IMG/VR virus record: IMGVR_UViG_3300030117_001005
Span: 1-54,687 of that record
Source of the DNA: a virus
Taxonomy: Duplodnaviria; Caudoviricetes
DNA length: 54,687 nucleotides
Reading direction: 5' to 3' (one strand)
The translations under genes and the position numbers were made by a program. The notes under the pieces are model-generated. The model was given only the letters and a program-made list of their open reading frames with translations, was not told where the DNA came from and made no database searches. How positions within the stretch are numbered: position 1 is the first letter of the stretch; every line of letters starts with the position of its first letter. This document shows, in pieces, positions 5,263 through 45,900 of this stretch.

Positions 5263-8200
5263 TTATTTCTTTGCCTTTCTTTTTTTCCTTTGCATCAGTC
5301 CACCTTTGTTAAATGCTCCTGATCCAGAACCTGAGGGTCCAATACTTTCTTGTCCAGTTTCCTCTATTGTAGAAGCCTCTCCTGATCCGATAGATGTTGC
5401 ACCTGCTGCAGCAGCCTCAGCAGCAGCCGCAGGAGAAACACCTGCATTTACACCTGCAGCAGCAGCTTGAGAAGCTGCAATAGGATCAACTCCCTCAGAA
5501 GCATTAGAGTAAGCAAGTCCTGCAGCAGAAGAAGCGTCAGTTGCAGAAGAAAAATCAGGTGCAGGTTTAGGTGCAGAGACTGCTGAAGTTTCTGGATCTT
5601 TAGATGGAACTATCTCTTTATCTATACTAAAGATATTGTTTACTAAGTCTTTGTCTTTTTGAAGATCAGCAGCAATCTTGTCACCGTCAATCCAAGCATT
5701 AGGAAGAGAGTTAAGAACTGGATTCTTAGAAACAAAATCTTTTGCTTTATTTGATAAGGTATTGTACAAATCCATGTTACCTTGAGCTTTAGCAAGTTCT
5801 GCCATAGCGTTAACTCTTGCTACACTAGTGCCTAACTTAATGGTGTTGATTAGATTATTAGCTTTTCCTTGTAGGTTTTCTTCTGCCCACTCTTCAGGAT
5901 TTGTAATATTTTTTGCCCAAGCATTAGGGTCTTTTGGTTCTGGATCTGGTGTGCCACCACCTCCACCACCGCCTCCTCCTTTAGGAGCACCCTCAATGGC
6001 TTCTGCTAACGCAGGTGAACCCTGTAAATAATAAGGTGGTTGAGTAAACTTAACATCAGTAGGGGGTGTTACTACACCATTTACATATGTAACAATTTTT
6101 ATGTCAGAAGTATTAGTTGCGTTAACATATGTTTTAGTTGAGGTAACACTAACAGGTTTCTGAGTAGGCTGTTGATACTGACTGAACCCTACAGTTGAAA
6201 AATTCATGGGAGTAAACGTATTTTGTACAGGTTGTCCTGTTGTTGCTGTGTTAGTACCAGTTTGAGACTGTTGACCTAGCATAGCAGGACCAGTGTTAGC
6301 AGCTACAGGTTGTGCAGGTGGAGCATTGGTCATAGGTTGACCACTCATGTTCTGTTGTACTTGTTGAGGAGACATTGGATCACCACCAATCCTGCCTGTG
6401 TTTTCCATAGTCTGTAGACCAGACTTTGCTTGGTTACGTAAGTTCTCAAAGAAGTTTACTCCGTAGTACCTAAGAACATCAGCAGGAACAACATATTCAC
6501 CTTCGGATAACATGGCAGGAATATCATCTCTTACTTCTTTGGCTAACGAGCCTGGAGGTATATCATTACCTGAGACAGGATCTTTAGTCATGCCATCATC
6601 TTTAAACACCATTTGCATTTGATCTTTCATTGCTGTACCACCTTCATTAAACATTCTTAGTTTACCATCTCTTGTCCTTACAGCCATTTGCTTCATTTGA
6701 GAGATAGTGGGTTTCTTTACATTTTTAGCTAGTACAAGAGGACCAACTTGAATTACTTCATCTGCTTCAAATACAGGAGCACCAGTTTTTTTATTGTAAA
6801 AAGCACTTCCACGATAAGGATTCATTCCTATCTGTGTCCACTCTTCTGAACCTGAAGCTATTATCTCAGCAGCTTGTCGTTGTAAATCATAAGGATCTTC
6901 AGGTTGATACTCTCCAAAGATACGAGCAATAGTAGCTTTACCTTGAGGTTTAGGAGCATCTTCTCCTGTAGCTTGAACAAGTCTTTTGCCTCTAGCAATA
7001 TCAAGGGCTGTCTTAGGATCTGAACCAAAGTTAATATTTTTTAGTCTAATAGCTTGTCCGTATCCAACAACACTACCTGACTTTTGATTACCATCATGAA
7101 TAGAGACTACCCATGTATCATAGTCATCATAGGCAGGGATATCTAATCTAGAAGATACTACTTGCCCTTTATCTAAGTCTTTTCCTTTAACACCTATGAT
7201 AGGATACTTTTTAGCTTTTTTACCTAATGCTCCTGTTATCTGAGTAAGACTAGGCATCATGTCTAAGACTTGCTCTGCAGTAAACTCTTGTGGATCAGGT
7301 ATAAAATCTTTTATTCTTTGCCTAGCTTCTTTAGAAGTAATTTCACCTTCTAGTAAATCAGATGCTGCCTTTTTTGATCCTTCAGGATTCTTTTGTCTTT
7401 GTGACTCAGGTAGTTTATTTTCTTTACGCCACTGCTCTAGTGCTTCAGAATCTTTAATAAGTCTTTCTGCTTCTTTTGCATCTGCAGCTTTATCAACTAG
7501 TTTTGTACTAGTTTTTCGTATTATAGTTTTACCTACTTGACCTAAGCCAGGAATCATACCTACAGCTTCACTAGCAGCCAACATACCTATCTTAGCTAAA
7601 CTAGGATCTTCTTCTTGTAACTCTTCTTTAATATCTCTTATAGTTGTTGCAGTGCTAATGCCTGGAATACTTTCTAGGGCTGCTTTTCCTAAAGCTTTTA
7701 CAGTTTCACTTGTTTCTTCTGGGTCAACAACTGTCACACCGTAGGATCTAGCTAAGTCAAGCTTTTCCATTTGATCATCTTGAGTTAAACCACCTTCGGC
7801 AAATCCTAATTTTTTACGTAACCTACCCATAAAACTTAAATGACCATAAGGAGTAGCTCTAGGTGGTTCTACTTCTTTTAATATATCTTCGGCTGCTTGT
7901 ATTAAATAACCTACACCACCAAATTGTGGATTTTTTTTGCCAAGAACTCCTGATCCTTGACGTTGAAAATTTTCTATATTTTTTAATGAGTTTTGATCTA
8001 AAAACTTTTCTTTATTATCCCTACCCATATTTTCTAAATTAGGGTAATTCCAAGCATCATCTACAAAGTCAAAATATTCTGTATAAAACTCATCTTTATC
8101 TGGATCTTTAGCTATTTGCTCAAGAGTTTCTAAAGCTCGTCTACCATATTTCCTACGAAACTCTTCAGCACCTATTTGATTCTTATATTCAATAAGTCTA

Positions 8201-8772
8201 TCAAAACCTCTGTGAGTCATTTCATGCGCCCAAACTCTAGGGCTTCCTACATCTGTATCTACAAAAATATCATCTGGAAGTGCTTCGTCAGATTTATTTT
8301 TAGGAACAGCCATATCCCCTAAAAGTTTTGCTTGAGATGGAGTATTTCTAGAATAAATATAAAATGCATTATCAAATAATTCAGGAACTGCAGTTAATCC
8401 TTTACTATAATAATATAATAACTCGTCTTTTAACTCCTTATCATTAAATATTTGCAAATCATCACTGACTTTTGTTTTTAAAGTAGGTGTAGACATAATA
8501 TAATCTACATAACCTTCTACGTTATTAAAGTCTGTTACTTTATCTGTACCTGTTGTGTTTTCAAACCCCAACCTAGCAATAGGATTTTTTATTAGTTCTT
8601 TATCTAAACTCCACCTAAACTCTAAATCACCAAATTCTTTAGCAAGATCTCTAGGTCTTTTTTCTATAGTCTTTGGACGTATGGATTCTGTAACAGCACC
8701 ACTCTCTCTTTTAACATTTCCTACAGGAACATCATCTGGTCTTGGTTTAGGCTTGATCTGGTTTAGGTCCAT
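5263..8772 (-). CDS. Large multidomain head-associated protein (HExxH zincin-like region, pre-toxin-like segment, unknown domain, DDIPAMLSEGEYV domain)
   Basis: 1169 aa between portal and scaffold; contains AHEMTHRG, ESIPG..GMIPGLG, DPVSGN..DDIPAMLSEGEYVVPAD and three FxxGG motifs. Confidence 0.6.
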   Translation of the reverse strand: MDLNQIKPKPRPDDVPVGNVKRESGAVTESIRPKTIEKRPRDLAKEFGDLEFRWSLDKELIKNPIARLGFENTTGTDKVTDFNNVEGYVDYIMSTPTLKTKVSDDLQIFNDKELKDELLYYYSKGLTAVPELFDNAFYIYSRNTPSQAKLLGDMAVPKNKSDEALPDDIFVDTDVGSPRVWAHEMTHRGFDRLIEYKNQIGAEEFRRKYGRRALETLEQIAKDPDKDEFYTEYFDFVDDAWNYPNLENMGRDNKEKFLDQNSLKNIENFQRQGSGVLGKKNPQFGGVGYLIQAAEDILKEVEPPRATPYGHLSFMGRLRKKLGFAEGGLTQDDQMEKLDLARSYGVTVVDPEETSETVKALGKAALESIPGISTATTIRDIKEELQEEDPSLAKIGMLAASEAVGMIPGLGQVGKTIIRKTSTKLVDKAADAKEAERLIKDSEALEQWRKENKLPESQRQKNPEGSKKAASDLLEGEITSKEARQRIKDFIPDPQEFTAEQVLDMMPSLTQITGALGKKAKKYPIIGVKGKDLDKGQVVSSRLDIPAYDDYDTWVVSIHDGNQKSGSVVGYGQAIRLKNINFGSDPKTALDIARGKRLVQATGEDAPKPQGKATIARIFGEYQPEDPYDLQRQAAEIIASGSEEWTQIGMNPYRGSAFYNKKTGAPVFEADEVIQVGPLVLAKNVKKPTISQMKQMAVRTRDGKLRMFNEGGTAMKDQMQMVFKDDGMTKDPVSGNDIPPGSLAKEVRDDIPAMLSEGEYVVPADVLRYYGVNFFENLRNQAKSGLQTMENTGRIGGDPMSPQQVQQNMSGQPMTNAPPAQPVAANTGPAMLGQQSQTGTNTATTGQPVQNTFTPMNFSTVGFSQYQQPTQKPVSVTSTKTYVNATNTSDIKIVTYVNGVVTPPTDVKFTQPPYYLQGSPALAEAIEGAPKGGGGGGGGGTPDPEPKDPNAWAKNITNPEEWAEENLQGKANNLINTIKLGTSVARVNAMAELAKAQGNMDLYNTLSNKAKDFVSKNPVLNSLPNAWIDGDKIAADLQKDKDLVNNIFSIDKEIVPSKDPETSAVSAPKPAPDFSSATDASSAAGLAYSNASEGVDPIAASQAAAAGVNAGVSPAAAAEAAAAGATSIGSGEASTIEETGQESIGPSGSGSGAFNKGGLMQRKKRKAKK

Positions 8773-8956
8773 TTACTTCATCCCTTAAAAACTTTAATCT
8801 ACGGAATGCTCTTGCTTCACCCTGTAGTCTGAACAAGTCTTCTTGTTTTATAGTTTGTTCCATTTGAATATGAACGTGGTTAAGTCTTCGATCCAGTTCA
8901 TCATTAAACGAGTTCCATAGTTTGTTGTCATTCACTAAAGGTTTTAAATTATTCAT
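8747..8956 (-). CDS. Small helical portal-adjacent protein
   Basis: 69 aa with FRLQGEARAFRRL; ATGA-coupled to the portal stop. Confidence 0.6.
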   Translation of the reverse strand: MNNLKPLVNDNKLWNSFNDELDRRLNHVHIQMEQTIKQEDLFRLQGEARAFRRLKFLRDEVNGPKPDQA

Positions 8957-11064
8957 CCTTGTCCTTGTCCTGTGTTAGCAGGAAACCCAGGTTCACCAGG
9001 GGTAGGAACAGAGCCTGTACCTACTTGTCCACCACCAGATCCTTGAGTATCTTGTGCTTGTGCTCCTGCAGGTACTCCTTGTTGTGGTGGTGCTGCCTGT
9101 GGAGGTGGTGGATTTTCTGCTTGAAATTTCTTTAAGATCTCAGCTTGTATAGCTGCATCCGTCATTGAGTTTGCAACCTTATCAGGATCAAGATTCATAG
9201 AGTTTGCAATCTCCCTGATAATATAATCCATTTTTGCGAAAGGTGCAAGAGCAGGGTTCTGGACAACACCAAGAAACTGCATGAGCCTTTGACTACGAAC
9301 TTCGTTAGCCATAAGAGAGTTTGTGCCTTCTGCTTTTACTTCTAAGTCACCTTTTATCTCAGGATCAAAATCAAACTGCATGTTAAAACTAAAGAAAGCT
9401 TTTGCTAGTGGTGATAATAAATAATCGTCTATATTTTTAACAACAGTACGTATGCTACCGTTGGCAGCAGACATAAGCATAGAAATACCAGAAGCAGTAC
9501 GACCCACTCCTTGTATGCCTGTTTGACCATGAGCGAAAGATGGAAAGCCAGTTGACTCATCAGATAATACCCTTGCTTTATCAAACATCTGCATGTTTTC
9601 GTTACTGACATTAGGAAACTTAGTACCAAAGATAGCCTGTCCAGGAGCACCTCCTTGTCTACGAAACACTTTGCCAGGATACACAGATAAGTCTTGTCCT
9701 GGAACTAAGTTAGTTTCGTCTACTTCAATAAGCAAGTTGCCTGATAATGCAGCGTTATCCACACTCATTCTCATAAAACCATTCATAAGAGTTTGTGTGT
9801 CATCCATGTTTTCAGCAATACCCACACCAAAAAAGCTGTAAGGATTTACTTCGTAAGGCACAGCATAGTACGGAAGTATAGCAGGGTTAAAAGGGTTCAT
9901 TACAAGACGTATAACTTGTCCGTTACAAATCCAAATGTTTACTGATACTTGGTCTTGATCTTTTATTTCTTTTGGAATTTCTACGTCATGACCTTCTAAA
10001 ATATCTGTGTCTACGTAACCCCAGAACTCAAGAACGTTAAACCTTTCAGCTTTTGTTTCTTGATCTGCATCTTCCATGACTTGTTCCCACCATTCTTTAT
10101 TGTAGGACTCACCAATTCTAATTGCAGTATCTATGGCGTTAGATCTAAAGAAAGGTCTGTTTTTTAAACCTCTCATTTGTGACCTAGACATTTTATGTCG
10201 TTCAATAACGTACTCAGCCTCATCCATGTTATTAGCGTCAGGATCAGGATAAAAGTTCCATATACTTACAGAACCAGTTTGAGGAATAGTTTTGTACATT
10301 GGGGAGTAGTTGCCTTGATCATCCCAGTTAGGATATTCTTTATCAAGAGCAAATGGGCCTTTCATTATGCCTGTACCAAACAGAGCAGTTTCAAAGGCTG
10401 TGTTACGCAATTGTTTGCTTGCGTTGGATTCGTCTAGTTGATCATGGATTTTCTTTTCCATCTTTTTAGCTGCTACCATAGCAGGATGATAACTAGGTTG
10501 TGATGGTGTTTGTCCTTCACCTTCTCTAAGATCGTCAATGACAGGCTCTAGTTTATTACGTAAACCTCCTAGTCTTTCTCTTAGATCAATTATAGTTTCT
10601 CCAGGCTGTAACTTTGTATCATCAGGAGTAAGACCTTGTGAAGTAGCTTCTTTTATCTGAGGATTTGTTTCAAAGTGTACAGCTTCTGCTACACCGTCAG
10701 GGAGTTTAGTAGGGTTAATTGAGATAGGAAACTTGTGATTTCCAAATAAAACATCAACAATTTGACCGTAAGCTGCAAGAACTTTAGTCTTAGTTACTTT
10801 AACAAATACTCTAGATTTTTCTGTGGAAGTAAACTGTACGTCAGGACCATAGATACCTCTGTAATTCTGATAAGATTTAATCCATCTTTGTTCGTCAGAG
10901 TATCTAGCCTTTTCAGCTTTGGAATATCTTTCTTCTACAAAACCTAGAATAGTTCCTGTTGCAGGATCACTGCTTAATTTATCATCACTAGTATCTTCTA
11001 TATATGAAGAGTTATCTTCATCCATTGATAGTTCATCTGTGTCAAAAATATCGTCTTCTTCCAT
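8953..11064 (-). CDS. Portal protein (P22-like podovirus type)
   Basis: 703 aa after TerL; FVKVTKTKVLAAYGQI, LFGTGIMKGP, WNFYPDP, FFGVGIAENM, RTASGISMLM. Confidence 0.9.
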   Translation of the reverse strand: MEEDDIFDTDELSMDEDNSSYIEDTSDDKLSSDPATGTILGFVEERYSKAEKARYSDEQRWIKSYQNYRGIYGPDVQFTSTEKSRVFVKVTKTKVLAAYGQIVDVLFGNHKFPISINPTKLPDGVAEAVHFETNPQIKEATSQGLTPDDTKLQPGETIIDLRERLGGLRNKLEPVIDDLREGEGQTPSQPSYHPAMVAAKKMEKKIHDQLDESNASKQLRNTAFETALFGTGIMKGPFALDKEYPNWDDQGNYSPMYKTIPQTGSVSIWNFYPDPDANNMDEAEYVIERHKMSRSQMRGLKNRPFFRSNAIDTAIRIGESYNKEWWEQVMEDADQETKAERFNVLEFWGYVDTDILEGHDVEIPKEIKDQDQVSVNIWICNGQVIRLVMNPFNPAILPYYAVPYEVNPYSFFGVGIAENMDDTQTLMNGFMRMSVDNAALSGNLLIEVDETNLVPGQDLSVYPGKVFRRQGGAPGQAIFGTKFPNVSNENMQMFDKARVLSDESTGFPSFAHGQTGIQGVGRTASGISMLMSAANGSIRTVVKNIDDYLLSPLAKAFFSFNMQFDFDPEIKGDLEVKAEGTNSLMANEVRSQRLMQFLGVVQNPALAPFAKMDYIIREIANSMNLDPDKVANSMTDAAIQAEILKKFQAENPPPPQAAPPQQGVPAGAQAQDTQGSGGGQVGTGSVPTPGEPGFPANTGQGQG

Positions 11065-11073
11065 AGGAAATCC

Positions 11074-12660
11074 TTAATAACCAAAAGTGGGATCTGAAGC
11101 TTGAAAGCCTGATCTTTGAGAAGCAGGATCAAAATCAAATACGCTGCTTCTTGGACGTGTCATTACACCGTATCTAAGTGCGTCATACAAATGATCTTCT
11201 GCGTGAGTGTCTACATCTTCAGGATTTTTTTTATCTAAAGGTATAGACGGTAGTTGAGAGATAAGATTTGTGCAGTTATTAAATATAACAAGCCTTGGCT
11301 CTTCCGTAAATTCGTCCACTTGCAATCGTCTGTGTATCTCGTTTTTACCTGCTACCCTAGAACCTTTTGATCTGTCAGATGGCCTCCAACGGCAACCTTT
11401 CATAATCATTTGTTCTGCTAAACTAGGACCAGTGTCACCACGATTATGCCAAAGAGAAGAGTCTAATACTCCGTACCTTAGTTTCTCTCCGTCTTCAATG
11501 TCCAGGATCATGTCAGCCAAATCAGTAGCAATTACCTTAGAAACGTATAGCTCTCTGTAGACTATTAGCTGTTCAGATCCTGGAACAACTGCGAACCAGA
11601 CAACACCAGTATAAGATCCGTATCCGTAGTCACAAGCTCTAAATCGAGTCCAGTTACTAGGTACTTCATAAGGATCTACTACGTGGATACGCCTGTTAAA
11701 CTCTGGAAAAGCTGCACCTTCATTTATATCCCAATCCCCTTCAAGCAACTGTCTTCTTTGATGTTCTGGTAAAGACAAAAGATTTGCTTCGTACATACCA
11801 TCTTCAGACAGGTAGGGATTATCAAATAACGTAGCAGGAATAAACTTTCTTTTAAATAAAGGTTCACCTTCCCTGCTATGACCTTTAGGCCACTTTATTA
11901 TTTCTCCGTTTTCGTCTGTTGCCCAAAAAGATTTGTCTGGTTTACTTGGGTCAATAAATATTTTTTTTACCCATCTGTGTCCTGGCCCCCCAGGGTTGCT
12001 TGTGGCTCTCATGTAGAGAGGAAGTCCACTGGCTTTTGTAGCACGTAACCTTGAACGCATATATGTCCAAGCGTAGTCTGTAGGCCATTGGGTTAACTCG
12101 TCAAAGCCTATCCAGTTAAAAGCTTGTCCTTGGTATCTCATAACATCATCATCACGATCAAGGTATGACATCCAAAGTGTTGCACCGTTTGGTGCTACCC
12201 AAGTCTTATCTCTTTCCATAAACTTTATTCCTGGCACAGCCTTTGGATAAAGTTGTTTGCTTACAGAAATAAGTTCTCGTAGCTCTTCTGTACTCCTACG
12301 AACAAGTAGCATTCGTGCATGTGGATTCGTAAAATATCTAACTGGATCAGCCACCAACGAAAACGACTTACCCCCACCTGCTGCTCCTCCATATAGAACC
12401 TCTTGTTCTGTAGCTGCTAAGAACCTAGTCTGTGGTCCTTTATTCGGTTGGAATATTACCTCTTGTCTGTCCACAGAAGGGGCAACACTCCCCTCTTTCA
12501 AGTTTGATGTAGTCCTCATCTGTGGTGAGACTTCTGGTATTTCTACCACCAAGTCTTTCTTTTTCGATCTTCTGGCTTTTCCTTGCCGCTTCTTTGTATT
12601 TTTTGGCATACTGCTTGTAGTTTGAGGAAGCTCTACGCCTTTTTTCTTCCATTCTGACAC
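11074..12660 (-). CDS. terL: Terminase large subunit (true start uncertain, probably downstream of 12660)
   Basis: Walker A YGGAAGGGKS, Walker B IGFDELTQW, ATSNPGG, nuclease ACDYGY and DHLYDALRY. Confidence 0.93.
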   Translation of the reverse strand: MSEWKKKGVELPQTTSSMPKNTKKRQGKARRSKKKDLVVEIPEVSPQMRTTSNLKEGSVAPSVDRQEVIFQPNKGPQTRFLAATEQEVLYGGAAGGGKSFSLVADPVRYFTNPHARMLLVRRSTEELRELISVSKQLYPKAVPGIKFMERDKTWVAPNGATLWMSYLDRDDDVMRYQGQAFNWIGFDELTQWPTDYAWTYMRSRLRATKASGLPLYMRATSNPGGPGHRWVKKIFIDPSKPDKSFWATDENGEIIKWPKGHSREGEPLFKRKFIPATLFDNPYLSEDGMYEANLLSLPEHQRRQLLEGDWDINEGAAFPEFNRRIHVVDPYEVPSNWTRFRACDYGYGSYTGVVWFAVVPGSEQLIVYRELYVSKVIATDLADMILDIEDGEKLRYGVLDSSLWHNRGDTGPSLAEQMIMKGCRWRPSDRSKGSRVAGKNEIHRRLQVDEFTEEPRLVIFNNCTNLISQLPSIPLDKKNPEDVDTHAEDHLYDALRYGVMTRPRSSVFDFDPASQRSGFQASDPTFGY

Positions 12661-12946
12661 GTTTATATAACCCTACATGTGATATGTCTCTACCAGATTG
12701 GTCAGATAACCACTTGGCTACTTGCCTGACACTGTAATCTTGAAGAAACCTTTTTGCTTTTTCTAAAAGTTCTAATTCTTCAGGGATAGGAATAAGAAGC
12801 ATGTCATCTTCTTTGTCCTGTTTATAACCAAAGGGTACGTGTCTTCCTACTCTTATAATCGGATACCACTCTCCCAGTTTTCCTTGCAGCGGTATTTGCC
12901 AATCTACTTTGGTTGGATGGTCTGCTTCAGTCGCTCTTTTACTCAT
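12440..12946 (-). CDS. HTH protein resembling the recombinase DNA-binding domain, between TerS and TerL
   Basis: VPFGY...LIPIPEELE...SVRQVAKWL..GRDISHVGL; no catalytic serine-recombinase domain. Confidence 0.6.
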   Translation of the reverse strand: MSKRATEADHPTKVDWQIPLQGKLGEWYPIIRVGRHVPFGYKQDKEDDMLLIPIPEELELLEKAKRFLQDYSVRQVAKWLSDQSGRDISHVGLYKRVRMEEKRRRASSNYKQYAKKYKEAARKSQKIEKERLGGRNTRSLTTDEDYIKLERGECCPFCGQTRGNIPTE

Positions 12947-13756: not shown

Positions 13757-13807
13757 GAGCCTCCTCCCAAAGTACTCCTAGTATCATTAAAGAACTGATT
13801 GTGTTTT

Positions 13808-14057: not shown

Positions 14058-14062
14058 CCCCG

Positions 14063-14296
14063 TTATGATTTGTTCTTTGGTTTTGTAGTCCAAGCTTCGT
14101 TAACATCAGGTGTAGAGGGATCATCTTTTATGTAGTGACCCTTCTCATTTCGAGCACGTACTTTTTCTGTTTCAGGTTTGTCTTGATTCATAATAAACTC
14201 TAATACAGCAGGATCTTTGGTGTGCCACTCTCCATGAATGTACTCAGCAAGAACAGCACCATATTGATCAACTACTTTTTCACCATCTAGTTTCAT
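14063..14296 (-). CDS. Hypothetical protein (RARNEKGHY..DDPSTPDVNEAW motif)
   Basis: 77-aa ORF coupled to the upstream gene. Confidence 0.6.
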   Translation of the reverse strand: MKLDGEKVVDQYGAVLAEYIHGEWHTKDPAVLEFIMNQDKPETEKVRARNEKGHYIKDDPSTPDVNEAWTTKPKNKS

Positions 14297-14913
14297 CTTT
14301 TACCTCTTCTAGTCATACCACCACCGTAAAACATTCCTTTCTTACGATAGTCAGTCATTCCACCTTTAGCATACCCTTTTTTCTTTTTTTGTAAGCTACC
14401 TTTAGAATTTCCGTACCTAGTGCTTTCTGTTCTGCCTGGACCCATCTTATAGGCTTCTAAAGCTCTTGCTCTATTTTTGTACTTGTCTTTGTTCTTTTTG
14501 TACCATTCATCAAACTTAGTAGCTTTTGCTAAACCTTCTTCAGCAACCTTTTTAACTTTAGCTACTTGCTTAGATTTAGCTTCTCGCTCTCCGATGCTTT
14601 GTTTAGGTTCTTTACCTTTAGTTGGGATAGTAAAAGCAGGAGGTAATTTTTCAACTGTAATAACATCCTTTGCTGAACCTGGACGTATTCTAGGTTTCAT
14701 TGAAGACTTAGGAGCACCACTAATATCTTTGCCTTTGTTGTTAGCCCAAGCTGTCAGAGCAGAACCTTTGTACTTACCCTTGTTTCTTTTTTTCCAAGCG
14801 TCTAAATCTTCTTTTGTTACAGCAAGCATCTTCTTGCCTTGCTTGTTCATGTAATACATTGATCCTGCTTTTTTAGCAGCAGCAATTGTTTTATAATCTT
14901 TATATGAGGCCAT
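14293..14913 (-). CDS. Lys-rich basic protein with GG motifs (start revised to MASYKDYK)
   Basis: AAGGA RBS before ATG 14913; ends KKKKGYAKGGMTDYRKKGMFYGGGMTRRGKR. Confidence 0.65.
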   Translation of the reverse strand: MASYKDYKTIAAAKKAGSMYYMNKQGKKMLAVTKEDLDAWKKRNKGKYKGSALTAWANNKGKDISGAPKSSMKPRIRPGSAKDVITVEKLPPAFTIPTKGKEPKQSIGEREAKSKQVAKVKKVAEEGLAKATKFDEWYKKNKDKYKNRARALEAYKMGPGRTESTRYGNSKGSLQKKKKGYAKGGMTDYRKKGMFYGGGMTRRGKR

Positions 14914-14917
14914 TGGA

Positions 14918-15355
14918 CTAATCCTTGTTATAAGTGTCAGGAGCTTTTTTGATCCCTGTGTTAAGAGGACCAGAAGACTTAACCATACCACCTACGTTGT
15001 AAGTAGCTACTGTACCGCCTTTAGCGTAAGCTTTCTTTTTCATGTTAGCTCCACCTTTAGCCATGCCTTTCTTTTTCATCATAGCACCGCCATTAGCCAT
15101 GCCCTTTTTCTTTTTGGGCATACCACCTTCGTTCATGTAACCCATCTTGTTACGAACTGATTCAGGTAGTTTTTTAAGACCAGTTTGGTTAGCACTAGGA
15201 GCTTTTAATCCTCCTGCTGCGTAACCCTTTTTCTTCATGTTGACACCGCCCTTAGCCATGCCTTTTTTCTTCATGTTGACACCACCCTTAGCCATGCCTT
15301 TCTTTTTCATCATAGCACCACCGTTAGCCATGCCTTTTTTCTTCATCTTTTTCAT
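14918..15355 (-). CDS. Repetitive Lys/Gly/Met-rich protein (KKKGMAKGG repeats)
   Basis: About nine [MY]-[AN]-x-GG units; 36-bp tandem DNA repeats at ~15225-15345 and ~15015-15115. Confidence 0.75.
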   Translation of the reverse strand: MKKMKKKGMANGGAMMKKKGMAKGGVNMKKKGMAKGGVNMKKKGYAAGGLKAPSANQTGLKKLPESVRNKMGYMNEGGMPKKKKGMANGGAMMKKKGMAKGGANMKKKAYAKGGTVATYNVGGMVKSSGPLNTGIKKAPDTYNKD

Positions 15356-16041
15356 TTATCTTCCTCACTATTAATACTATACAAATTATTAAAGACTCGT
15401 TGCGTATCCCATACGTAGTCCACGTTTTCTTTTGAGTTATAAATATTCTGGTTTGGTTTAAAGTCTGGTGCACCTTGACCTGTTTCAAACCAAGCAGGGT
15501 GAGTTACTCTCACTCTATTGTTGGGTAACGCAACAATGTTACCTGTGTACTCCCCTGCATCCAACAACTCAAGTACGTGAGATTGTTTGTGCTGTGCAGG
15601 ATCGTCTGCTACTTCATTGTCAGTATAATCAACAGTGAAGTAATACTTTGCAGGATAGAACTGCCCATCTACTTTTGCTATCCAAGGGGCAGGACTAGCT
15701 CTTTCTAATTTGTATACTGAGTGTGTATGCGACATACAATCCCAGGGTTGTGCTAAATACGGTGGTAATTCTTCAGGCCACTCTTCTAAAGGTGTGTCTG
15801 CTACGAGTGCTGTAAGAGGCATCCTTGCCCACATTGCACCACCGTGTACGTTCTCTGAGCCATCAAAGTCCGACTCACAACCAGTAAATAAAACTTGAAA
15901 ACTTAGAGTTCTGTTTGGCATGGTGGTTACACCTATAACCATACAATGTAAAAACTCTCCGTGATAGTCTTCAAAATTCTTTGTGTATTCTCTACGTACC
16001 CATGCTTTGAAGTACGGTATGCTACTTTGTAGATACGGCAT
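15352..16041 (-). CDS. Conserved hypothetical phage protein (start revised to MPYLQSSIPYF)
   Basis: Globular, HGGAMWARMP..AQPWDC..KYYFTVDY..QHKQSH..PNNRVR; no function recognised. Confidence 0.7.
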   Translation of the reverse strand: MPYLQSSIPYFKAWVRREYTKNFEDYHGEFLHCMVIGVTTMPNRTLSFQVLFTGCESDFDGSENVHGGAMWARMPLTALVADTPLEEWPEELPPYLAQPWDCMSHTHSVYKLERASPAPWIAKVDGQFYPAKYYFTVDYTDNEVADDPAQHKQSHVLELLDAGEYTGNIVALPNNRVRVTHPAWFETGQGAPDFKPNQNIYNSKENVDYVWDTQRVFNNLYSINSEEDK

Positions 16042-16327
16042 CTTTTTTGTGTTTCCTTCGCAATTCTGCTTTAGCTTGTTTAAAGACATTTGCTATTGCT
16101 GTCTTGCCCATAACCTTAGCACGTTGCTCTGCTACGGTCAATATTTGGATCTTTCTTGCGTAAGGCTTCTTTAACTTTTTTACTTTTGCTACTGTAGCTT
16201 TGGCATCAGCCATTGTAGCAAACTTGATCGATACCGTGTCTTTAGGGTTTTCATCCGTGTATAGTCTACGTCCAGACCCTTTAGGTTTTTTACCTGTTCC
16301 TACTTTTGGGTCTTTTTGCTTTGCCAT
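16022..16327 (-). CDS. Basic hypothetical protein (RLYTDENPKDT family)
   Basis: 101 aa, Lys-rich, within the operon. Confidence 0.65.
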   Translation of the reverse strand: MAKQKDPKVGTGKKPKGSGRRLYTDENPKDTVSIKFATMADAKATVAKVKKLKKPYARKIQILTVAEQRAKVMGKTAIANVFKQAKAELRRKHKKDAVSTK

Positions 16328-16583
16328 TACTTACTACCCCACCTTTAGCGGCTCTAAACTTTCTTGTCTTTTCCGCTATCTTTTTAGGTTGTGCCACAAA
16401 CTGTTTACCTGCAGCCTTTCCTTTTCTTTTAGCTTTTGTTGTGGCTGCATACTCACTGCTGCTAAGAGATTTAATAGCTGCACTAGGTAAATACCGTTCA
16501 CCAGTCTTAGAACTGGGCTTGCCACTCTTTGTGCGCCATTTTTGTTTAGTCCATTTCTTAAGAGACTTCTGTGGGGCTTTCAC
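16290..16583 (-). CDS. Basic protein, C-terminal half of a DUF5872-like domain
   Basis: QKSLKKWTKQKWRTKSG..GERYLP; GTGA-coupled to the upstream ORF. Confidence 0.6.
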   Translation of the reverse strand: MKAPQKSLKKWTKQKWRTKSGKPSSKTGERYLPSAAIKSLSSSEYAATTKAKRKGKAAGKQFVAQPKKIAEKTRKFRAAKGGVVSNGKAKRPKSRNR

Positions 16584-16873
16584 GACTTGTAGCCTCCACC
16601 TTTGGCTTTGTATTGTTTGGCTAACATTTGAGCTTTACGAGCAGACCATTGACCAGGGCTACCCCCTTTGCCACCTGCTTTGATCCTGTTGAATAGGTTT
16701 TTACGCATAGTTGGTTTAGTGTAATTACCTGCTTTGTTAACTGTACTACCACCGCTAGACATTCCAACTGCTTTTTTTAAAGTCTTTGCTTGACCTGCGT
16801 GTGTTTTTGAGGCTTTGCTTAAACCTTTAATTACTTTTTTTACTTTAGTTTTATTTTGTTTTGATAAAGCCAT
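16580..16873 (-). CDS. Basic protein, N-terminal half of a DUF5872-like domain
   Basis: YTKPTMR...KGGSPGQWSARKAQMLAKQYKAKGGGY. Confidence 0.6.
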   Translation of the reverse strand: MALSKQNKTKVKKVIKGLSKASKTHAGQAKTLKKAVGMSSGGSTVNKAGNYTKPTMRKNLFNRIKAGGKGGSPGQWSARKAQMLAKQYKAKGGGYKS

Positions 16874-41549: not shown

Positions 41550-41553
41550 CTTA

Positions 41554-42090
41554 TTACCTCGCCATCAGACCTTTAGGTGTATCTTCAACAACATCATCAT
41601 CCATCATATCAGATTCTTCACTGGGTTCTGCTTCTGATGTTGCTGTTTCACTTATCTCTTTTAAAAGTTCAAAACCCTTATCACGTTCTTCTTCAGGAGT
41701 TTTGTCAACAGCCCTCACCAACATAGCAGCTTTTTCTGTTGCTGATAATTCTTCTTTATCAAAAGTTTCTTTGTATTCTACACCTGCAGCGTCAGCCATT
41801 TTCATTACTGCTTTACGGACTACACGTTCAATTAACAAACTCTTGTCAATATCGTGTACACCTTTTCCTACAGCACCTGTCATCATTGAATCAGTAAGAA
41901 CCTTTACTGGTATACCCATATCAAGAGCAAAGAAAATATTATCTATTACTTCTGGATCAGAGATCCTATCAAGATGGTATCTTACTGCTTCATTAGGTTC
42001 TGTTATTTCTGGGGGTCTTTCCCAAGGATAATTCTTTGGTTCATCTGTTAGGGCTTGCCCTGGAATAGGTCTGTTAAATACTTCAGACAT
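41554..42090 (-). CDS. Conserved virion protein (PIPGQALT.EP..YPWERPP), ends in KGLMAR
   Basis: Motif typical of internal-protein modules of marine podoviruses. Confidence 0.55.
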   Translation of the reverse strand: MSEVFNRPIPGQALTDEPKNYPWERPPEITEPNEAVRYHLDRISDPEVIDNIFFALDMGIPVKVLTDSMMTGAVGKGVHDIDKSLLIERVVRKAVMKMADAAGVEYKETFDKEELSATEKAAMLVRAVDKTPEEERDKGFELLKEISETATSEAEPSEESDMMDDDVVEDTPKGLMAR

Positions 42091-42908
42091 TATACTTCAC
42101 CTCTGTAAAATTTAATAATACTTCCTACCGTAGCATTTCCATCTTCACCTGCCCATTTAGGATTTGCTTTTAGTTCTTTACTTCCTTTTCTGTAGACTAC
42201 AAAATCTTTGTCTTTGTCTCTTGCTGAAGGTGCAGCAATCAACAGACCTAAAGGAACTGACCCATTGTAGTCTGCATAATTCCATCGATCTAAATATTTT
42301 TCTAGAGCGTTTAGCTGATCTACTGGATTTTTAGAACTATTTAATTTTTTAATGTTAATTCCTGCTTCTTTAGCAGGTGTTGCTAATATTTGAAACATGT
42401 TCTTTGCAGCAGGGTTAGTCATAAGACTACTTTCTTTAGCACCAACCATAAGTATTTCACGTTCAGGTATACCATACTTTTCTGATAGCTCTGTCAACTT
42501 AGCAGAAAATCTTTCGTCTTCTTTTAACTCTTTTATGGTGTCAGAAAAATCGTCTAGGTCTTTATCAAAAAAATACTCTGCTCCTTTAGGACGGTTAGGA
42601 ATACTTTCTTCCATGTCATCTGTGTCCATGTCACTAAAATCAAAATCTTTTTCAAGATCGTCATCCCAAGTTCCGTAGAACTCAGACAAAGCTTCGTCTG
42701 CTTTAGAATCATCAACAGAAGCACTAGTTTTTAAAGCGTTTCTTACACCCCTTCTAGCCTCTTCCATTTTTGCTTTAGTCTCGTTTCTTCCCATAAGACT
42801 TCGTTGGGTAGTCTCAGCTTTGTTAGCTTGTGCTGCTCCTTTCCAATTCTCTAAAATCGCAGCATGTATTGAAGCTGCTTGTGGTTCTTTATCTGGAGGT
42901 AAACTCAT
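42090..42908 (-). CDS. Putative virion lytic transglycosylase-like protein
   Basis: LSEKYGIP..ILMVGAKESS..NP..NMFQI..QLNALEKYL resembles a degenerate SLT core. Confidence 0.5.
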   Translation of the reverse strand: MSLPPDKEPQAASIHAAILENWKGAAQANKAETTQRSLMGRNETKAKMEEARRGVRNALKTSASVDDSKADEALSEFYGTWDDDLEKDFDFSDMDTDDMEESIPNRPKGAEYFFDKDLDDFSDTIKELKEDERFSAKLTELSEKYGIPEREILMVGAKESSLMTNPAAKNMFQILATPAKEAGINIKKLNSSKNPVDQLNALEKYLDRWNYADYNGSVPLGLLIAAPSARDKDKDFVVYRKGSKELKANPKWAGEDGNATVGSIIKFYRGEV

Positions 42909-45900
42909 TATCCTATCCCTACTATACTTTTAAATACTTCTTTTAAGAAATTACCTGAGTTTGCTGCTGCTTGTATATCAGCTTCTAACTTTGCTGCTTC
43001 TTTGACACCTTCTATCTGTAACTTTTCAAGGACAACAGCATTAGCTCTTTGAGCGTTGTTCTCTGAGATCTGAAAGGCCATTGAAAGAATGTCTCTTTCT
43101 CTCATCCATATCTCATCTAACGCCCTCATAGTCAACCCATTTACGCTCTGAGCATAAGCCATGTTAGCCTCGTTTGCTGCAGCAGAATTTATGGTTGCAA
43201 TGTTCTGTCTCCACTGAGCATTTGCTTGTGCCACAGCAAGATAGTTCTGAGCGTTAAACCTTTCTCTTACATCCTGTAACTCAGCATTAAACTCTAGCAA
43301 CGTGTTTATTTCGTCAGCGTTAAACTGTTGCATTGCGTTGAGTTGGGCAGCATTGAACTGATTGACTGAAGCTTTGAGGTTAGCAAAGAACTGGTTTGCT
43401 TGGTTTTCAGAAGTAGCATTAAACTGATTTACTGCGTTCTCAGCAGCACTATCAGACAATATTGAATTAATTAGTGATTGTTGTTTAAACAAAGCTGATT
43501 GTTGATCGTTAGACAAGTTAGCCATGTCAACTTGTAAAAAGTTCTGAGCGTTTTGTACTTGTGCTTGCTGTCTGTTGTTAAGGTTAGATATGTCAAGCTG
43601 AGATATGGCAGCAGCCTCAGCCATAACTACAGCTTGTCTGTTAGACAGATTCTGAAGTTGCATGGTGTTAGCAGCCCTAGAGTTTTCTAAGGCTATCTGT
43701 TGATCTGCAGTAAACTGCAGGTTAGCAATCTCAGACACAGTAGTAGCATTTTTTACTTTAGCTTGGAAAGCTTGATCAAACTCAATACCTAAGAACTTAG
43801 CACGTTGTTCAGCTTTAAACAAAGCCATCTGCTGTTTGTTACCTGCGTCTATTTGAGCAATAGGCAATGCGGCTTCCATAGCAGCCTGTACAATAGCTTG
43901 TCCTGCAAGAGATGAAGCACCAAGACCACGTTCTGCTAAGACTGCTGTAGCTCTTCTCATAGATCCTGCAGCCCAAGCAGGTGTGTTACCACCTTCAAAC
44001 TGTTGCATCAAAGAAGCTAGTTCATCTTGAACTGTAGCAGCCTGTACTTCACCAGTTCCAAATGTTGCTGATACTTTTCCTTGATCAACACCAGTACCAA
44101 CAACAAGCTCTCCGTTTGGACCGGTGCGTAGTTCACGAGTAGGAGCATTCTCAACGTTAAGAGCAGAACTCGTTACCCCTGCTAATCCAGAAACACCAGA
44201 AGTATTTTGTTGTTGAGCAGTGATAGTGCTAGAGGGTTGATCCAGATTAGCAGCACTCATTGTTGAAGTTGCTGACTTTATAGCAGTCTGTGTTTTGTCA
44301 GCACTAATGTCTGCTGCTCTTTTTTCTGTGGGTGCATCAGCTACCACACCAGTACCCATTTGAGCTATTTCATCTCTGCGTACAATAGGAGCTACACCTA
44401 GTGACTGACCTGCAGTAGCTTCTATTACAGATCCGTAAGTATTAGGATCTATGTAAGTAGTTGGTGATGCAGCTATTGCACCTTGAGGTGCTCCATAAGC
44501 TTGAGCAACAAGATTTCTTTGAAACTGACCTAAATCTTCTTTTGTTACTTGTTGCTGAGTATTTATTCCACTCTGATTTATGTCTGCTGTCTGTGGGGGC
44601 ATAGGAAAAGTATCAACAATTGGGCTTGTATCTACATTTGCTGCATATGCTGCTGCATTTGCTGCCGCATTTGCCGTAAGTTGGTCTACGTCTGCTGCAT
44701 TTTTGGCTGCGTTAGCTTCTGCTAGTGTTGCAAATAACTGTGAGAATCTACCGTCAGGATACTGTATCTTAAACTGTGTACCATCTTGAACAACAAAACC
44801 ACCTGGAGCATAACTCTGTACCATACCACCTTGGGAAAAATATCCCTGTTGTTCCATTTCATCTCGCAATTGGTCAGCTTGCTGTTGTTGTGTAGATTGT
44901 GTAGTCTGTGTGTTGGCCTGAGTTTTAGGAACTAAATAGTATCCTGCAGGAATAGGTTGAGATGGTTTACCGTTGATATGTTGAATATACATAGTCATAC
45001 CAAAACTATTTCTGTATAGCCTCATTTCAAAAGTAGGTGCTAGATTTTGATTAAACTGTTCTTGTGGAGTTTGGGGTTGATAGAATTGTTGTTGTTGATT
45101 AGCTCTAGCAATAAAACTATCTTCTTGGTTTTCTAGCCCTTGTTGAAACGTAGGTATTTGTTGTTGAGTTACACCTGTCATAGCAGGAGTTGAAGTTCCT
45201 ACATTGCTTGTTCCTGCTAGTGGTGTTGAGATGTAACCAGTAGTGTTTGGAGTAAAGAAGCTACCAGTCTGCCCTGTGGCTGCTGTAGGATCTTGAGCAA
45301 TATCTATCTGAGCAGTTGGATTAAGAGATGTGGCAACACCATCAGCACCTAAAAGTTTAGCATCATCTTCTTCTAATATTTTTAATTTCTTTAATATTTC
45401 AACCCACTGTAAAGAGTTGTACAAATCACCAGTAGCATCAACTTGATATTGTTGATTTATAGCTTGTTCTTGATCTAAATATTTTTTATCGTAGATACCG
45501 TCAAAATCACCTACTGGTTTTAAAGCTATACTTTCTTTACCTGAATCTTTTAAAAGGTTTTGAATAAGAACTTGGTTAGCAAGGTTATCGTTAACCATAA
45601 ACCTGTATTCTTCACCAGTTTCTTCATCGATCTGACCTGCGTATGATTGTAAATTCTCAGAAGTACTTTCTAAATACCCGTAGTCTTGAGCGACTTCATA
45701 AGCGTTAAGATAAGCGACTGCTCCTGCATCCCTAGGACCACCTAAAGTAGAGTTATCATAAAATGTTTCATTATTTCCTACCTCGTATCCGTATTCTCTA
45801 AGTAAACCCTCAACACTATCTATTTCTCCTGCTTCCCCTGTTCCAGGAGAATTTAAAGGTGTATCTTCAGTTAAACCTGCAGCTACTTTTAACTCGTTAA

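What the first reader, a model, noticed from the sequence alone, without database searches (positions are those of the whole stretch)
5299..44842. Genome-wide [FYM]-x-x-G-G peptide motif punctuating late proteins: candidate processing or virion-targeting system
Seen: the motif occurs as FAEGG (~7789-7803), FNEGG (~6637-6651) and FNKGG (~5299-5313) in the 1169-aa protein, where it falls at apparent domain boundaries, twice followed by DQM. It also occurs as FSQGG and YAPGG (~44798-44842) between the variable and conserved-looking halves of the 1139-aa protein, as YAKGG/FYGGG in 14293..14913, AAKGG in 16290..16583, MSSGG in 16580..16873, and about nine times in 14918..15355. I did not notice a comparable pattern in the replication enzymes. 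Known: Gly-Gly marks cleavage sites in double-glycine leader peptides and ubiquitin-like proteins. Inference: a shared signal for proteolytic maturation or head loading of cargo. No standard prohead protease is recognisable, so the DDIPAMLSEGEYV domain, the HExxH domain or orphan 15352..16041 are candidate readers.
Basis: partly seen in the sequence, partly recalled or inferred. Interest (0 to 1): 0.82.

Follow-up and report, generated by a model that had tools for sequence, protein, structure and literature searches.

The report
Shared glycine-pair motif in phage cargo proteins
A short peptide signal (bulky residue, small residue, any residue, two glycines, bulky residue) really does recur at domain joints and ends of a few probable head-internal proteins of an abundant type of marine phage, but what reads it is still unknown.

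Summary
The window is an HMO-2011/CRP-9-like marine podophage. The motif is enriched: 18 copies in late proteins without the tandem-repeat protein, against 7.5 in shuffles (0/2000).

It is not genome-wide. The extended form G-[FYM]-[AN]-x-G-G-[LMV]-[VA] sits in the protein encoded after the portal gene, the 1139-aa protein and small lysine-rich proteins. It is absent from TerL, capsid and scaffold-like proteins and nearly absent from portal.

Positions are conserved. One site is present in 66/66 homologues. Copies sit at domain junctions and bracket inserted domains, and minimal homologues begin at the motif. Glycine codons vary, so the ribosome-binding-site reading fails.

No protease was found. 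HExxH occurs in only 5/66 homologues. The orphan 15352..16041 is a "PurM-like" gene adjacent to lysine-rich repeat genes in 50 of 80 loci, but it is missing from cultured relatives.

Lambda gpH and T5 pb2, both cleaved near such sequences, share the syntax but not provable homology. Processing and docking remain unresolved.

The parts
5263..8772 (-). 1169-aa multidomain protein encoded directly after the portal gene. It has a variable N-terminal domain with HExxH, a conserved central domain, an invariant GEYV segment, low-complexity regions and a basic tail.
   Evidence: (1487 homologues at E<=0.001)
7789..7803 (-). Motif copy FAEGG (residues 324-328), at the junction between the variable N-terminal domain and the conserved part.
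   Evidence: A motif aligns here in 40 of 66 homologues, even where the N-terminal domain is different or short.
6637..6651 (-). Motif copy FNEGG (residues 708-712), at the end of the folded central domain.
   Evidence: Present in 66 of 66 homologues; G711 and G712 are invariant. In the AF2 model F708 follows the last strand and confidence drops after it.
6376..6582 (-). Invariant segment, residues 731-799 (DPVSGN..DDIPAMLSEGEYVVPADV..).
   Evidence: About 40 invariant columns in 66 and in 96 sequences. Mean pLDDT is about 40-67, with parts under 50. Minimal homologues of 430-442 aa start with a motif copy followed by this segment.
5299..5313 (-). C-terminal motif copy FNKGG, followed by LMQRKKRKAKK and the end of the protein.
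   Evidence: NKGGLM plus a basic tail is found in 55 of 66 homologues, but [FYM] at position 0 in only 15 of 66.
8212..8226 (-). HEMTH (an HExxH match, residues 183-187) in the variable N-terminal domain.
   Evidence: HExxH in 5 of 66 homologues; no Pfam family.
42908..46327 (-). 1139-aa protein with a variable N-terminal half and a conserved Q/N/A-rich C-terminal half.
44798..44839 (-). Motif pair FSQGG (497) and YAPGG (506), just before the conserved half.
   Evidence: 58 of 65 homologues carry at least one motif. It sits just N-terminal of the conserved half, at about residue 53 in the short 590-640-aa forms. It is absent from the distant homologues in CHOED and MQM1, with one YTSGG in phiM6.
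14918..15355 (-). 145-aa lysine-rich protein with nine motif copies, mostly in a 12-residue tandem repeat (KKKG[MY]AxGGxx).
   Evidence: 24 of 24 homologues carry the motif, 5.1 copies per protein. The repeat number varies between orthologues.
15352..16041 (-). 229-aa 'PurM-like' protein; its stop codon overlaps the start of the lysine-rich gene.
14293..14913 (-). 206-aa basic protein with YAKGG and MFYGGG near its basic C-terminus.
   Evidence: The motif is in 38% of 26 homologues. CRP-9 gp65 has YTKGG at the same place.
16290..16583 (-). 97-aa basic protein (phrog_14910) with AAKGG.
   Evidence: The strict motif is in 42% of 40 homologues.
16580..16873 (-). 97-aa basic protein (phrog_17747) with MSSGG.
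   Evidence: The motif is in 31% of 32 homologues.
8953..11064 (-). Portal protein (context; nearly motif-free).
   Evidence: Pfam SU10_portal, E=3.4e-24. 6% of 81 homologues have a motif.
11074..12660 (-). Large terminase (context; motif-free).
   Evidence: 0 of 81 homologues carry the motif.
2991..4064 (-). Major capsid protein (context; motif-free).
   Evidence: phrog_267, E=2.9e-61. 0 of 19 homologues carry the motif.
4279..5214 (-). 311-aa protein in the scaffold position between the giant protein and the capsid gene (context; motif-free).
   Evidence: phrog_13678, function unknown. 0 of 28 homologues carry the motif. The scaffold role is inferred from position only.

Best explanation
The motif is a real, lineage-specific short linear motif with consensus G-[FYM]-[AN]-x-G-G-[LMV]-[VA]. 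It marks the probable head-internal or ejected ('cargo') proteins of HMO-2011-like marine podophages: the multidomain protein encoded after the portal gene, the 1139-aa protein and a cluster of small lysine-rich proteins.

It lies in flexible stretches at domain junctions and near termini. I think one common partner reads it during head assembly or ejection.

My preferred mechanism is junction-specific proteolytic processing. The multidomain protein would be cut into its domains, basic C-terminal tails would be trimmed, and the lysine-rich repeat proteins would be cut into short basic peptides. The protease would be one not recognisable by sequence, either host-encoded or an unrecognised phage one.

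Shown: the motif, its enrichment, its positional conservation, its restriction to a few families, and selection at the protein level. Inferred: that these proteins are virion cargo (from gene position and domain content only), that a single reader exists, and that reading means cleavage.
For: 1. Family restriction among distinct homologues, observed against shuffled: giant protein 138 vs 27.1; 1139-aa family 90 vs 21.5; lysine-rich repeat 103 vs 12.5; three small basic families 20 vs 2.5, 28 vs 2.7 and 12 vs 3.8. In each case 0/200 shuffles reach the observed count. Portal has 5, and TerL, MCP, TerS and the scaffold-like protein have 0.
2. Positional conservation in 66 aligned giant proteins: 66/66 at site 708, 57/66 at 723, 40/66 at the N-domain junction even when that domain differs, and 55/66 with C-terminal NKGGLM plus a basic tail.
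3. Junction behaviour. In 5 of 66 proteins (P0015, P0047 with LysM, P0065, P0067, P0069) an inserted block is flanked by duplicated motif copies. Stand-alone minimal homologues of 430-442 aa begin at a motif copy, which is where the extra domains of the giant forms are joined on. In the 1139-aa family the motif sits at the variable/conserved boundary in 58/65.
4. In the AF2 model the 708 copy ends the confidently folded central domain and leads into a low-confidence stretch.
5. Protein-level selection: 15 different Gly-Gly codon pairs in 304 distinct DNA contexts, and only 32 with a Shine-Dalgarno-like core.
6. Precedent. T5 tape measure protein pb2 is cut after R1127 (PMC10038345, passage read). 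In the T5 record this lies immediately before AEGGMM, followed about 15 residues later by a GE..EVV stretch. Lambda gpH loses a ~14-kDa C-terminal piece from its glycine-rich region, with site and catalyst unknown (PMC12617516, passages). That region holds FATGG, PAGIVHRGEFVF, YATGG and a C-terminal MRDGGL: 4 motif matches against 0.71 in shuffles (17/5000).
Against: - No protease was found. No peptidase family passed the Pfam cut-off in 30 window proteins. HExxH is in only 5/66 homologues. The conserved central domain has no conserved Ser, His or Cys and no fold match.
- Both sides of the Gly-Gly are conserved, and the copies often come in pairs 9, 12 or 16 residues apart. That fits a binding element at least as well as a cut site.
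- Minimal homologues keep the motif at their very N-terminus, fused to the invariant segment. This suggests it is a working part of that segment, not just a cut site.
- The lambda/T5 likeness is syntax only. hhalign probability is under 1%, no better than shuffled controls. The T5 residue before the cut is Arg, not F/Y/M.
- HK97, Mu, T7 and P22 tape measure or ejection proteins lack the syntax.
- No virion proteomics of any HMO-2011-type phage was found, so even virion residence of these proteins is unproven.
- Homologues are related, so counts across them are not independent events.
Confidence: 0.38

Rival explanations
1. Docking or cargo-loading motif. The motif is a short binding peptide that plugs its two hydrophobic anchors (positions 0 and +5) into a pocket on a repeated head component: the scaffold-like protein, the capsid inner face or the portal. 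Cargo proteins would thereby be enclosed in the procapsid. This would work like capsid-targeting sequences or encapsulin cargo-loading peptides. Multiple and paired copies would give avidity.
For: Both flanks of the Gly-Gly are conserved, including G at -1 and L/M/V at +5. Copies come in pairs and arrays spaced 9, 12 or 16 residues apart. They occur in proteins of opposite charge, acidic flanks in the giant protein and basic in the small ones, which argues for one external reader. Copies lie at termini after low-complexity linkers. Minimal post-portal proteins start with the motif joined to an invariant, apparently unfolded segment that looks like a binding peptide. The shell and packaging proteins themselves lack it.
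Against: No receptor is identified and none was tested. A loading signal does not explain why inserted domains are bracketed by motif copies. It also does not explain why the motif marks the variable/conserved junction of the 1139-aa family. Relatives with the same portal family (Rhizobium phage RHph_N3_13, Vibrio phage CHOED) have neither the motif system nor the GEYV segment, so a portal or capsid pocket would have to be lineage-specific too.
Confidence: 0.3
2. Intrinsic structural or nucleic-acid-binding repeat with no dedicated reader. The Gly-Gly turn with flanking hydrophobic residues would be a hinge or beta-turn unit that keeps ejected proteins flexible. In the lysine-rich proteins it would be part of a histone-H1-like DNA- or envelope-binding repeat. 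Its presence in several families would reflect convergence or exchange of linker sequence.
For: The small proteins are 20-45% Lys+Arg and have tandem 12-residue units whose number varies between orthologues. Some relatives carry a LysM domain or an EF-hand-like loop. These features point to binding of DNA or cell-envelope polymers rather than to processing. Glycine hinges between domains are plausible for proteins that must pass a narrow channel.
Against: A plain hinge does not need G at -1, [FYM] at 0, [AN] at +1 and [LMV] at +5, all kept across unrelated families. The copies in the giant protein have acidic flanks, unsuited to DNA binding. One copy is kept in 66/66 homologues while its surroundings vary.
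Confidence: 0.22
3. Not a protein feature. The pattern would come from chance and glycine-rich composition, or from GGTGG/GGAGG nucleotides acting as ribosome-binding sites for internal starts.
For: The motif was defined after inspection. The early block also has 5 copies. 105 of 304 DNA contexts have an ATG 5-11 nt downstream.
Against: Shuffles that keep each protein's composition never reach the observed counts. Positions are conserved across homologues of roughly 30-80% identity. Gly codons vary over 15 pairs and follow background usage, and only 32 of 304 contexts are Shine-Dalgarno-like. In the window copies printed, the ATGs within about 12 nt after the motif are in-frame Met codons of the repeat itself.
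Confidence: 0.03

Closest known systems
C-terminal processed regions of the tape measure proteins of lambda (gpH to gpH* + gpHC) and T5 (pb2 to pb2* + pb2C)
   Same: The short-motif syntax in the same order. Lambda gpH has FATGG, then PAGIVHRGEFVF, then YATGG, then a C-terminal MRDGGL. The window has FNEGG, then DDIPAMLSEGEYVVPADV, then further copies in relatives, then a C-terminal NKGGLM. T5 pb2 is cut after R1127, directly before AEGGMM. Both are proteins that leave the virion ahead of the DNA, and both are cut by an unknown catalyst (PMC12617516, passages).
   Different: No demonstrable homology: hhalign probability is under 1%, equal to shuffled controls. These are siphovirus tail proteins, whereas here the proteins belong to a podovirus and are encoded next to the portal gene. 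The lambda cut site is unmapped. The T5 P1 residue is Arg. Other tape measure proteins (HK97, Mu) lack the syntax.
Polyvalent proteins of phages and conjugative elements (Iyer et al. 2017, PMC5512222; passages read)
   Same: A large virion-module protein with a changing set of domains. Among homologues I found LysM above Pfam's cut-off, below-cut-off matches to methyltransferase and amidase families, and an HExxH match in a few. The paper proposes processing of such proteins by zincin-like peptidases.
   Different: The passages returned by my term search of that paper name no glycine-pair junction motif ('glycine' 0 occurrences). Most homologues here have no peptidase-like domain (5/66 with HExxH). 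Membership of their defined families was not shown.
Capsid-targeting sequence plus prohead protease of T4-like and phiKZ-like phages, and the adenovirus protease sites (M/I/L)XGG-X (all recalled, not from a call)
   Same: The idea of one short signal shared by internal head proteins, including basic DNA-associated ones, that is used for loading and/or cut during maturation. The adenovirus sites also end in Gly-Gly preceded by a hydrophobic residue.
   Different: No prohead protease or adenain-like family was detected. The hydrophobic residue here is one position further from the Gly-Gly, with A/N in between. The T4 and phiKZ sites end in Glu, not Gly-Gly.
Encapsulin cargo-loading peptides (recalled)
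   Same: Short Gly-rich peptides with spaced hydrophobic anchors, on flexible extensions of cargo proteins, sometimes in several copies. They bind the inner face of an HK97-fold shell.
   Different: The consensus is different, binding to the capsid protein was not tested here, and the motif is also internal at domain junctions.

Membership tests
Double-glycine leader peptides (cut by C39 peptidase domains of ABC exporters) | An N-terminal leader of about 15-30 residues ending in Gly-Gly | tested here: not met
   Copies are internal, C-terminal or in tandem arrays.
Double-glycine leader peptides (cut by C39 peptidase domains of ABC exporters) | A C39 peptidase / ABC exporter encoded nearby | tested here: not met
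   No such Pfam family in the 30 window proteins scanned. About 45 small ORFs were not scanned.
Ubiquitin-like proteins ending in Gly-Gly | A beta-grasp domain of about 70 residues directly before the Gly-Gly | tested here: not met
   Copies lie 9-16 residues apart in arrays, which leaves no room for such a domain. The domain before the 708 copy has no match to any solved fold.
Adenovirus-protease-type maturation | Hydrophobic residue at P4 of (M/I/L)XGG-X (consensus recalled) | tested here: not met
   The hydrophobic residue is five positions before the residue that follows the Gly-Gly, and A/N occupies the next position.
Adenovirus-protease-type maturation | A clan CE cysteine protease gene | tested here: not met
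   None among the 30 proteins scanned with Pfam.
Prohead protease systems (HK97 gp4 / T4 gp21 / lambda gpC types) | A protease gene between the portal and capsid genes | tested here: inconclusive
   The gene in that position is the 1169-aa protein. It has no protease family in Pfam or PHROGs, and its central domain has no conserved Ser, His or Cys. Fold searches found nothing, which does not exclude a diverged protease.
MuF / SPP1 gp7 minor head proteins | Gene directly after the portal gene | tested here: met
   Gene order TerL, portal, a 69-aa ORF, then the 1169-aa protein. The order is the same in CRP-9 and HTVC103P.
MuF / SPP1 gp7 minor head proteins | Phage_Mu_F domain | tested here: not met
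   No Pfam hit at E<=0.01 for the whole protein, nor at E<=10 for residues 690-830.
Polyvalent proteins (Iyer et al. 2017) | Several unrelated effector domains in one polypeptide within a virion gene module, with variable architecture between relatives | tested here: inconclusive
   The N-terminal part and the inserts vary. LysM passes Pfam's cut-off in P0047 (51.9 against 20.9 bits). Methyltransf_23 (25.6 against 27) and Amidase_6 (17.2 against 23.2) in P0097 fall below their cut-offs, as does Phage_L5_gp82 in 2 of the 3 proteins it matched. Most domains have no family, so the 'effector' nature is unshown.
Lambda-type tape measure C-terminal region | Sequence homology to the gpH C-terminal 150 residues | tested here: not met
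   hhalign probability 0.7%, the same as shuffled gpH. Pfam has no model for gpH 702-853.
PurM (AIR synthetase), for the orphan 15352..16041 | AIRS / AIRS_C domains | tested here: not met
   No Pfam family in the window protein or in 42 family members. The 'PurM' and 'ferredoxin' labels come from cyanophage records and an automatic cluster name.
Encapsulin-type cargo-loading peptide | Binding of the peptide to the inner face of the HK97-fold shell protein | not tested

The most novel reading that the evidence does not exclude
HMO-2011-like phages may mature their head contents somewhat as adenoviruses do. Lysine-rich DNA-associated precursor proteins and a multidomain cargo polyprotein would be cut at [FYM]-[AN]-x-G-G sites by a protease that sequence methods do not recognise. 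The same class of site would be the long-unmapped cut in lambda gpH, and it would match the mapped cut in T5 pb2. That would define a widespread, unrecognised processing system for proteins that leave the virion with the DNA.
Probability: 0.15. Interest if true: 0.85.

Novelty: new variant of a known kind. Interest (0 to 1): 0.6.

Why it matters
The abstract of PMC9038755 describes the HMO-2011-type group as dominant and broadly distributed in the ocean. How these phages load and deliver internal proteins is unknown.

A single short signal shared by the post-portal multidomain protein, a second large internal-type protein and a family of lysine-rich proteins gives a concrete handle. It predicts which proteins are cargo and where they may be cut or docked, and it can be tested with one proteomics experiment on a cultured relative.

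The same syntax in lambda gpH suggests specific candidate positions for a cleavage whose site and catalyst that paper states are unknown (PMC12617516, passages).

The tight gene pair of a 'PurM-like' protein with lysine-rich repeat proteins also puts a functional context on a gene that cyanophage records label PurM or ferredoxin without support.

Tried and rejected
- Ribosome-binding-site reading: rejected.
- HExxH domain as general reader: rejected, 5/66.
- PurM-like orphan as general reader: rejected. tblastn found 105 phage records, all under 60% identity and all from cyanophages, pelagiphages and a few others, none from Roseobacter or Puniceispirillum phages. In HTVC027P and a cyanomyophage the homologue has no lysine-rich neighbour.
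- AF2 of the PurM-like protein failed with a shallow alignment of 37 sequences (mean pLDDT 38.9), so no fold search was run on it. A profile search against PDB sequences found nothing. Pfam on 42 members found nothing useful.
- Complex prediction of the PurM-like protein with the lysine-rich protein: 'no answer', score 0.00 against a mark of 0.32, controls not run. This is no evidence either way.
- Central domain of the giant protein: Foldseek against PDB gave no match at E<=0.001. VIA wide gave a best Z of 3.5, on a helical stretch only.
- PDB sequence searches with the GEYV stretch and with the whole protein gave only chance-level rows (E = 0.72 and 0.4).
- Homology of the GEYV segment to lambda gpH or T5 pb2: not supported.
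- The idea that the syntax is general to tape measure or ejection proteins: rejected for HK97, Mu, T7 and P22.
- Apparent 'avoidance' of the motif in portal and TerL (5 against 36 and 0 against 16 expected): I do not claim it. The homologues are close relatives and the ancestor may simply have had none.
- Literature. A search for six motif pentapeptides gave 429 papers. None of the 20 listed titles concerned phages, and the other 409 were not looked at. No proteomics or protease passages were found in two HMO-2011/CRP papers or in a further search. This is the only basis for saying I found no prior description.
- Material not seen. The original HMO-2011 paper was not found in the library and was not read. 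S5G was not seen.

Selections made before counts:
- A1 used 66 of the 120 listed hits (1487 found).
- A2 used 95 of the 120.
- A3 used 36 of 52 distinct homologues.
- In one search, 273 ORFs with no blastp match to window proteins were set aside (45 motifs in 33,330 aa).

Full report
**What the window is.** The 54,687-base window is a marine podophage of the HMO-2011/CRP-9 kind. Its portal-terminase region is 79.5% identical at the DNA level to Roseobacter phage CRP-9. Pfam recognises an SU10-type portal (8953..11064), a large terminase (11074..12660) and an SU10-type adaptor (1447..2385). PHROGs recognises the major capsid protein (2991..4064). Genes run on the minus strand from about 19.8 kb to 1 and from 54.7 to 37.1 kb (structure, packaging, lysis). 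They run on the plus strand from 20 to 36.9 kb (replication and modification).

**Check of the observation.** Shuffling residues within each protein gives 8.4 +/- 2.8 copies of [FYM]xxGG in the late proteins, against 27 observed. Without the tandem-repeat protein the figures are 7.5 +/- 2.7 against 18. In both cases 0 of 2000 shuffles reach the observed value. The motif was chosen after looking, so these numbers alone would not convince me. The relatives do.

**Relatives.** I fetched 80 viral contig loci through the portal protein and 68 through the 1139-aa protein, and sorted their ORFs by best match to window proteins.

Families that carry the motif:
- 35/35 homologues of the protein encoded after the portal, 4.3 copies each
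- 24/24 homologues of the lysine-rich repeat protein, 5.1 copies each
- 58/65 homologues of the 1139-aa protein
- 31-42% of three small basic protein families
- 4/6 homologues of a 133-aa protein

Families that do not: 0/81 terminases, 0/68 small terminases, 0/28 scaffold-position proteins, 0/19 capsid proteins and 6% of 81 portals.

On distinct sequences, enrichment over shuffles is 3- to 23-fold in the seven carrier families, with 0/200 shuffles reaching the observed count. Homologues are related, so these counts are not independent. I therefore make no claim from the apparent depletion in portal and terminase.

The extended consensus from 287 distinct instances is G-[FYM]-[AN]-x-G-G-[LMV]-[VA]. 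Flanks are acidic in the large protein and lysine-rich in the small ones.

**Positions.** In an alignment of 66 homologues of the post-portal protein (66 of the 120 listed; 1487 found):
- The copy at residue 708 is present in 66/66, with both glycines invariant.
- A second copy 15 residues later is present in 57/66; the window protein has lost it.
- A copy at the junction between the variable N-terminal domain and the conserved part is present in 40/66, whatever that N-terminal domain is.
- Further copies after the invariant segment are present in 32/66.
- A C-terminal NKGGLM with a basic tail is present in 55/66, although only 15/66 have F/Y/M at position 0 there.
- In five proteins an inserted block is flanked by duplicated motif copies; in one the insert includes a LysM domain.

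Short stand-alone homologues of 430-442 aa begin with a motif copy joined to the invariant segment DPVSGN..DDIPA.LS.GEYVVPADV and end with a ..KGG[LF]I-type copy and a basic tail. The giant forms therefore look like extra domains added upstream, each joint carrying a motif copy.

In the 1139-aa family the motif lies just before the conserved C-terminal half, at about residue 53 in the short forms and about 500 in the long ones.

**Nucleotide alternative.** In 304 distinct DNA contexts the two glycines use 15 codon pairs, in proportions close to the background. Only 32 contexts contain a Shine-Dalgarno-like core. In the window copies printed, the ATGs within about 12 nt after the motif are in-frame Met codons of the repeat. 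Selection is on the peptide.

**Structure.** An AF2 model of residues 460-830 (96-sequence alignment, mean pLDDT 73.9) folds residues 460-709 with confidence. F708 follows the last strand, and confidence drops immediately after the motif. The invariant 731-799 stretch has mean pLDDT of about 40-67, with one longer helix. The folded domain has no match among solved structures and no conserved Ser, His or Cys. The invariant stretch behaves like a segment that folds on a partner rather than like an enzyme. This is inference.

**Candidate readers.**
- HExxH occurs in 5/66 homologues.
- No peptidase family passed the Pfam cut-off in 30 window proteins. About 45 small ORFs were not scanned.
- The orphan 15352..16041 gave the one new lead. 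I scanned viral contigs for a back-translated motif peptide and obtained 80 loci. Of these, 56 held a homologue of the orphan. In 50 of the 56 it lay directly beside the motif-bearing lysine-rich ORF on the same strand, mostly 0-7 bases apart. That includes 31 loci with no match to the five other head and packaging proteins I checked.
- Occasional predicted fusions of the two genes exist.
- The orphan's family is large (565 representatives) and has no Pfam family.
- Its distant cyanophage and pelagiphage members are labelled 'PurM' or 'ferredoxin' in records.
- It is missing from cultured HMO-2011 and CRP phages, although CRP-9 carries the motif in its post-portal protein and small basic proteins. 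It cannot be the general reader.

**Lineage limits.** More distant phages with the same portal family behave differently.
- Rhizobium phage RHph_N3_13 (portal 51% identical) has a post-portal protein with one loose copy and no GEYV segment.
- Vibrio phage CHOED has no such protein.
- The 1139-aa homologues in CHOED and MQM1 lack the motif, and phiM6 has one loose copy.
- Pelagiphage HTVC103P has the motif three times, plus a ..SDSIPALLSDGEFVF.. segment, in its 431-aa post-portal protein, but no copy in its 1139-aa homologue.

The motif and the GE[FY]V segment therefore travel together in one lineage, imperfectly.

**Link to known biology.** Lambda tape measure protein gpH has the same elements in the same order in its last 150 residues. 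It has 4 motif matches against 0.71 in shuffles (17/5000).

[quoted passage not shown] A cut next to FATGG at 733-737 would release about 120 residues. This is my arithmetic, not a finding.

T5 pb2 is cut after R1127 (PMC10038345, passage). In the record, that position is directly before AEGGMM.

Against over-reading this: profile comparison shows no homology, and HK97, Mu, T7 and P22 proteins lack the syntax. P22 gp7 is annotated as trimmed by the host protease OpdA (record note), so host-catalysed trimming of ejection proteins has precedent.

**Judgement.** I am confident (about 0.8) that this is a real, selected, lineage-specific short linear motif, restricted to a set of non-shell late proteins and read by something they have in common.

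On what the reading is, I give processing 0.38, docking or loading 0.30, and a reader-less structural or polymer-binding repeat 0.22. Junction bracketing, the match between motif positions and gene-fusion boundaries, and the T5 and lambda precedents tip me towards processing. The missing protease, conservation on both sides of the Gly-Gly, the paired copies, and the motif's retention at the N-terminus of minimal proteins pull the other way. That these proteins are in the virion at all rests on gene position and domain content only.

Noticed in passing
window 14918-16041 (minus strand); loci L150-L229: A conserved two-gene unit: a 229-aa protein of the family that cyanophage records call PurM or ferredoxin, followed (stop overlapping start) by a lysine-rich Gly-Gly repeat protein. 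It is found in 50 of 80 loci fetched by a motif-peptide pattern, including loci with no match to the other head and packaging proteins checked. Rare predicted fusions exist (P0138, P0188).
   Followed up: partly
L186, L229 (motif ORFs), P0047: Some lysine-rich motif proteins (by eye) and one post-portal homologue (P0047, Pfam) carry a LysM-like peptidoglycan-binding stretch. This hints that these proteins act at the cell wall.
   Followed up: no
L151, L216 (motif ORFs); L281:26674-27969 (HTVC103P gp79): An EF-hand- or dockerin-like loop (FPD.x.DG.(V/I)TQxDIL) recurs next to motif copies in lysine-rich proteins and in a pelagiphage post-portal protein.
   Followed up: no
loci L003, L018, L037, L067, L153, L160, L175, L178, L205, L227: Other recurrent short elements in the small basic proteins of relatives: ..NCGAS..P.., C-terminal DGCA.RGKT.GK.. 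and KVRGAGIARKGVRPAKMR, GLKKLP..VRNKMGY, and KVPFYAADGKGKMNKGG. None has a known meaning.
   Followed up: no
window 5965-5991 (residues 932-940 of the 1169-aa protein): A run of nine glycines inside a long low-complexity region rich in Q, P, T, A and S.
   Followed up: no
window 46000-46130 (N-terminal part of the 1139-aa protein): An arginine/lysine cluster followed by a polyalanine and alternating Ala-Glu run (..RRAKKRRKKRARRKAAAEAAAAAAAAAAAAEAEAEE..).
   Followed up: no
window 47679-49835 and 50790-53036: Two paralogous large proteins that both end in Pfam DUF7483 (E about 1e-90); the second also has an fn3 domain. They are probably tail fibres.
   Followed up: no
window 22551-23774: A C-5 cytosine DNA methylase in the early block. 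It holds two of the five chance-level motif copies there.
   Followed up: no
window ends (1-1447 and 53427-54687): ORFs run off both ends on the minus strand, but they do not join in one frame across the ends, and there is no terminal overlap of 10-200 bases. The window is therefore not a cleanly circularised genome.
   Followed up: partly
L274:13834-14442 (HK97 homologue of lambda gpI): The HK97 tail-tip protein I carries FAAGGL and YAFGGV, while the HK97 tape measure protein does not carry the motif syntax.
   Followed up: no
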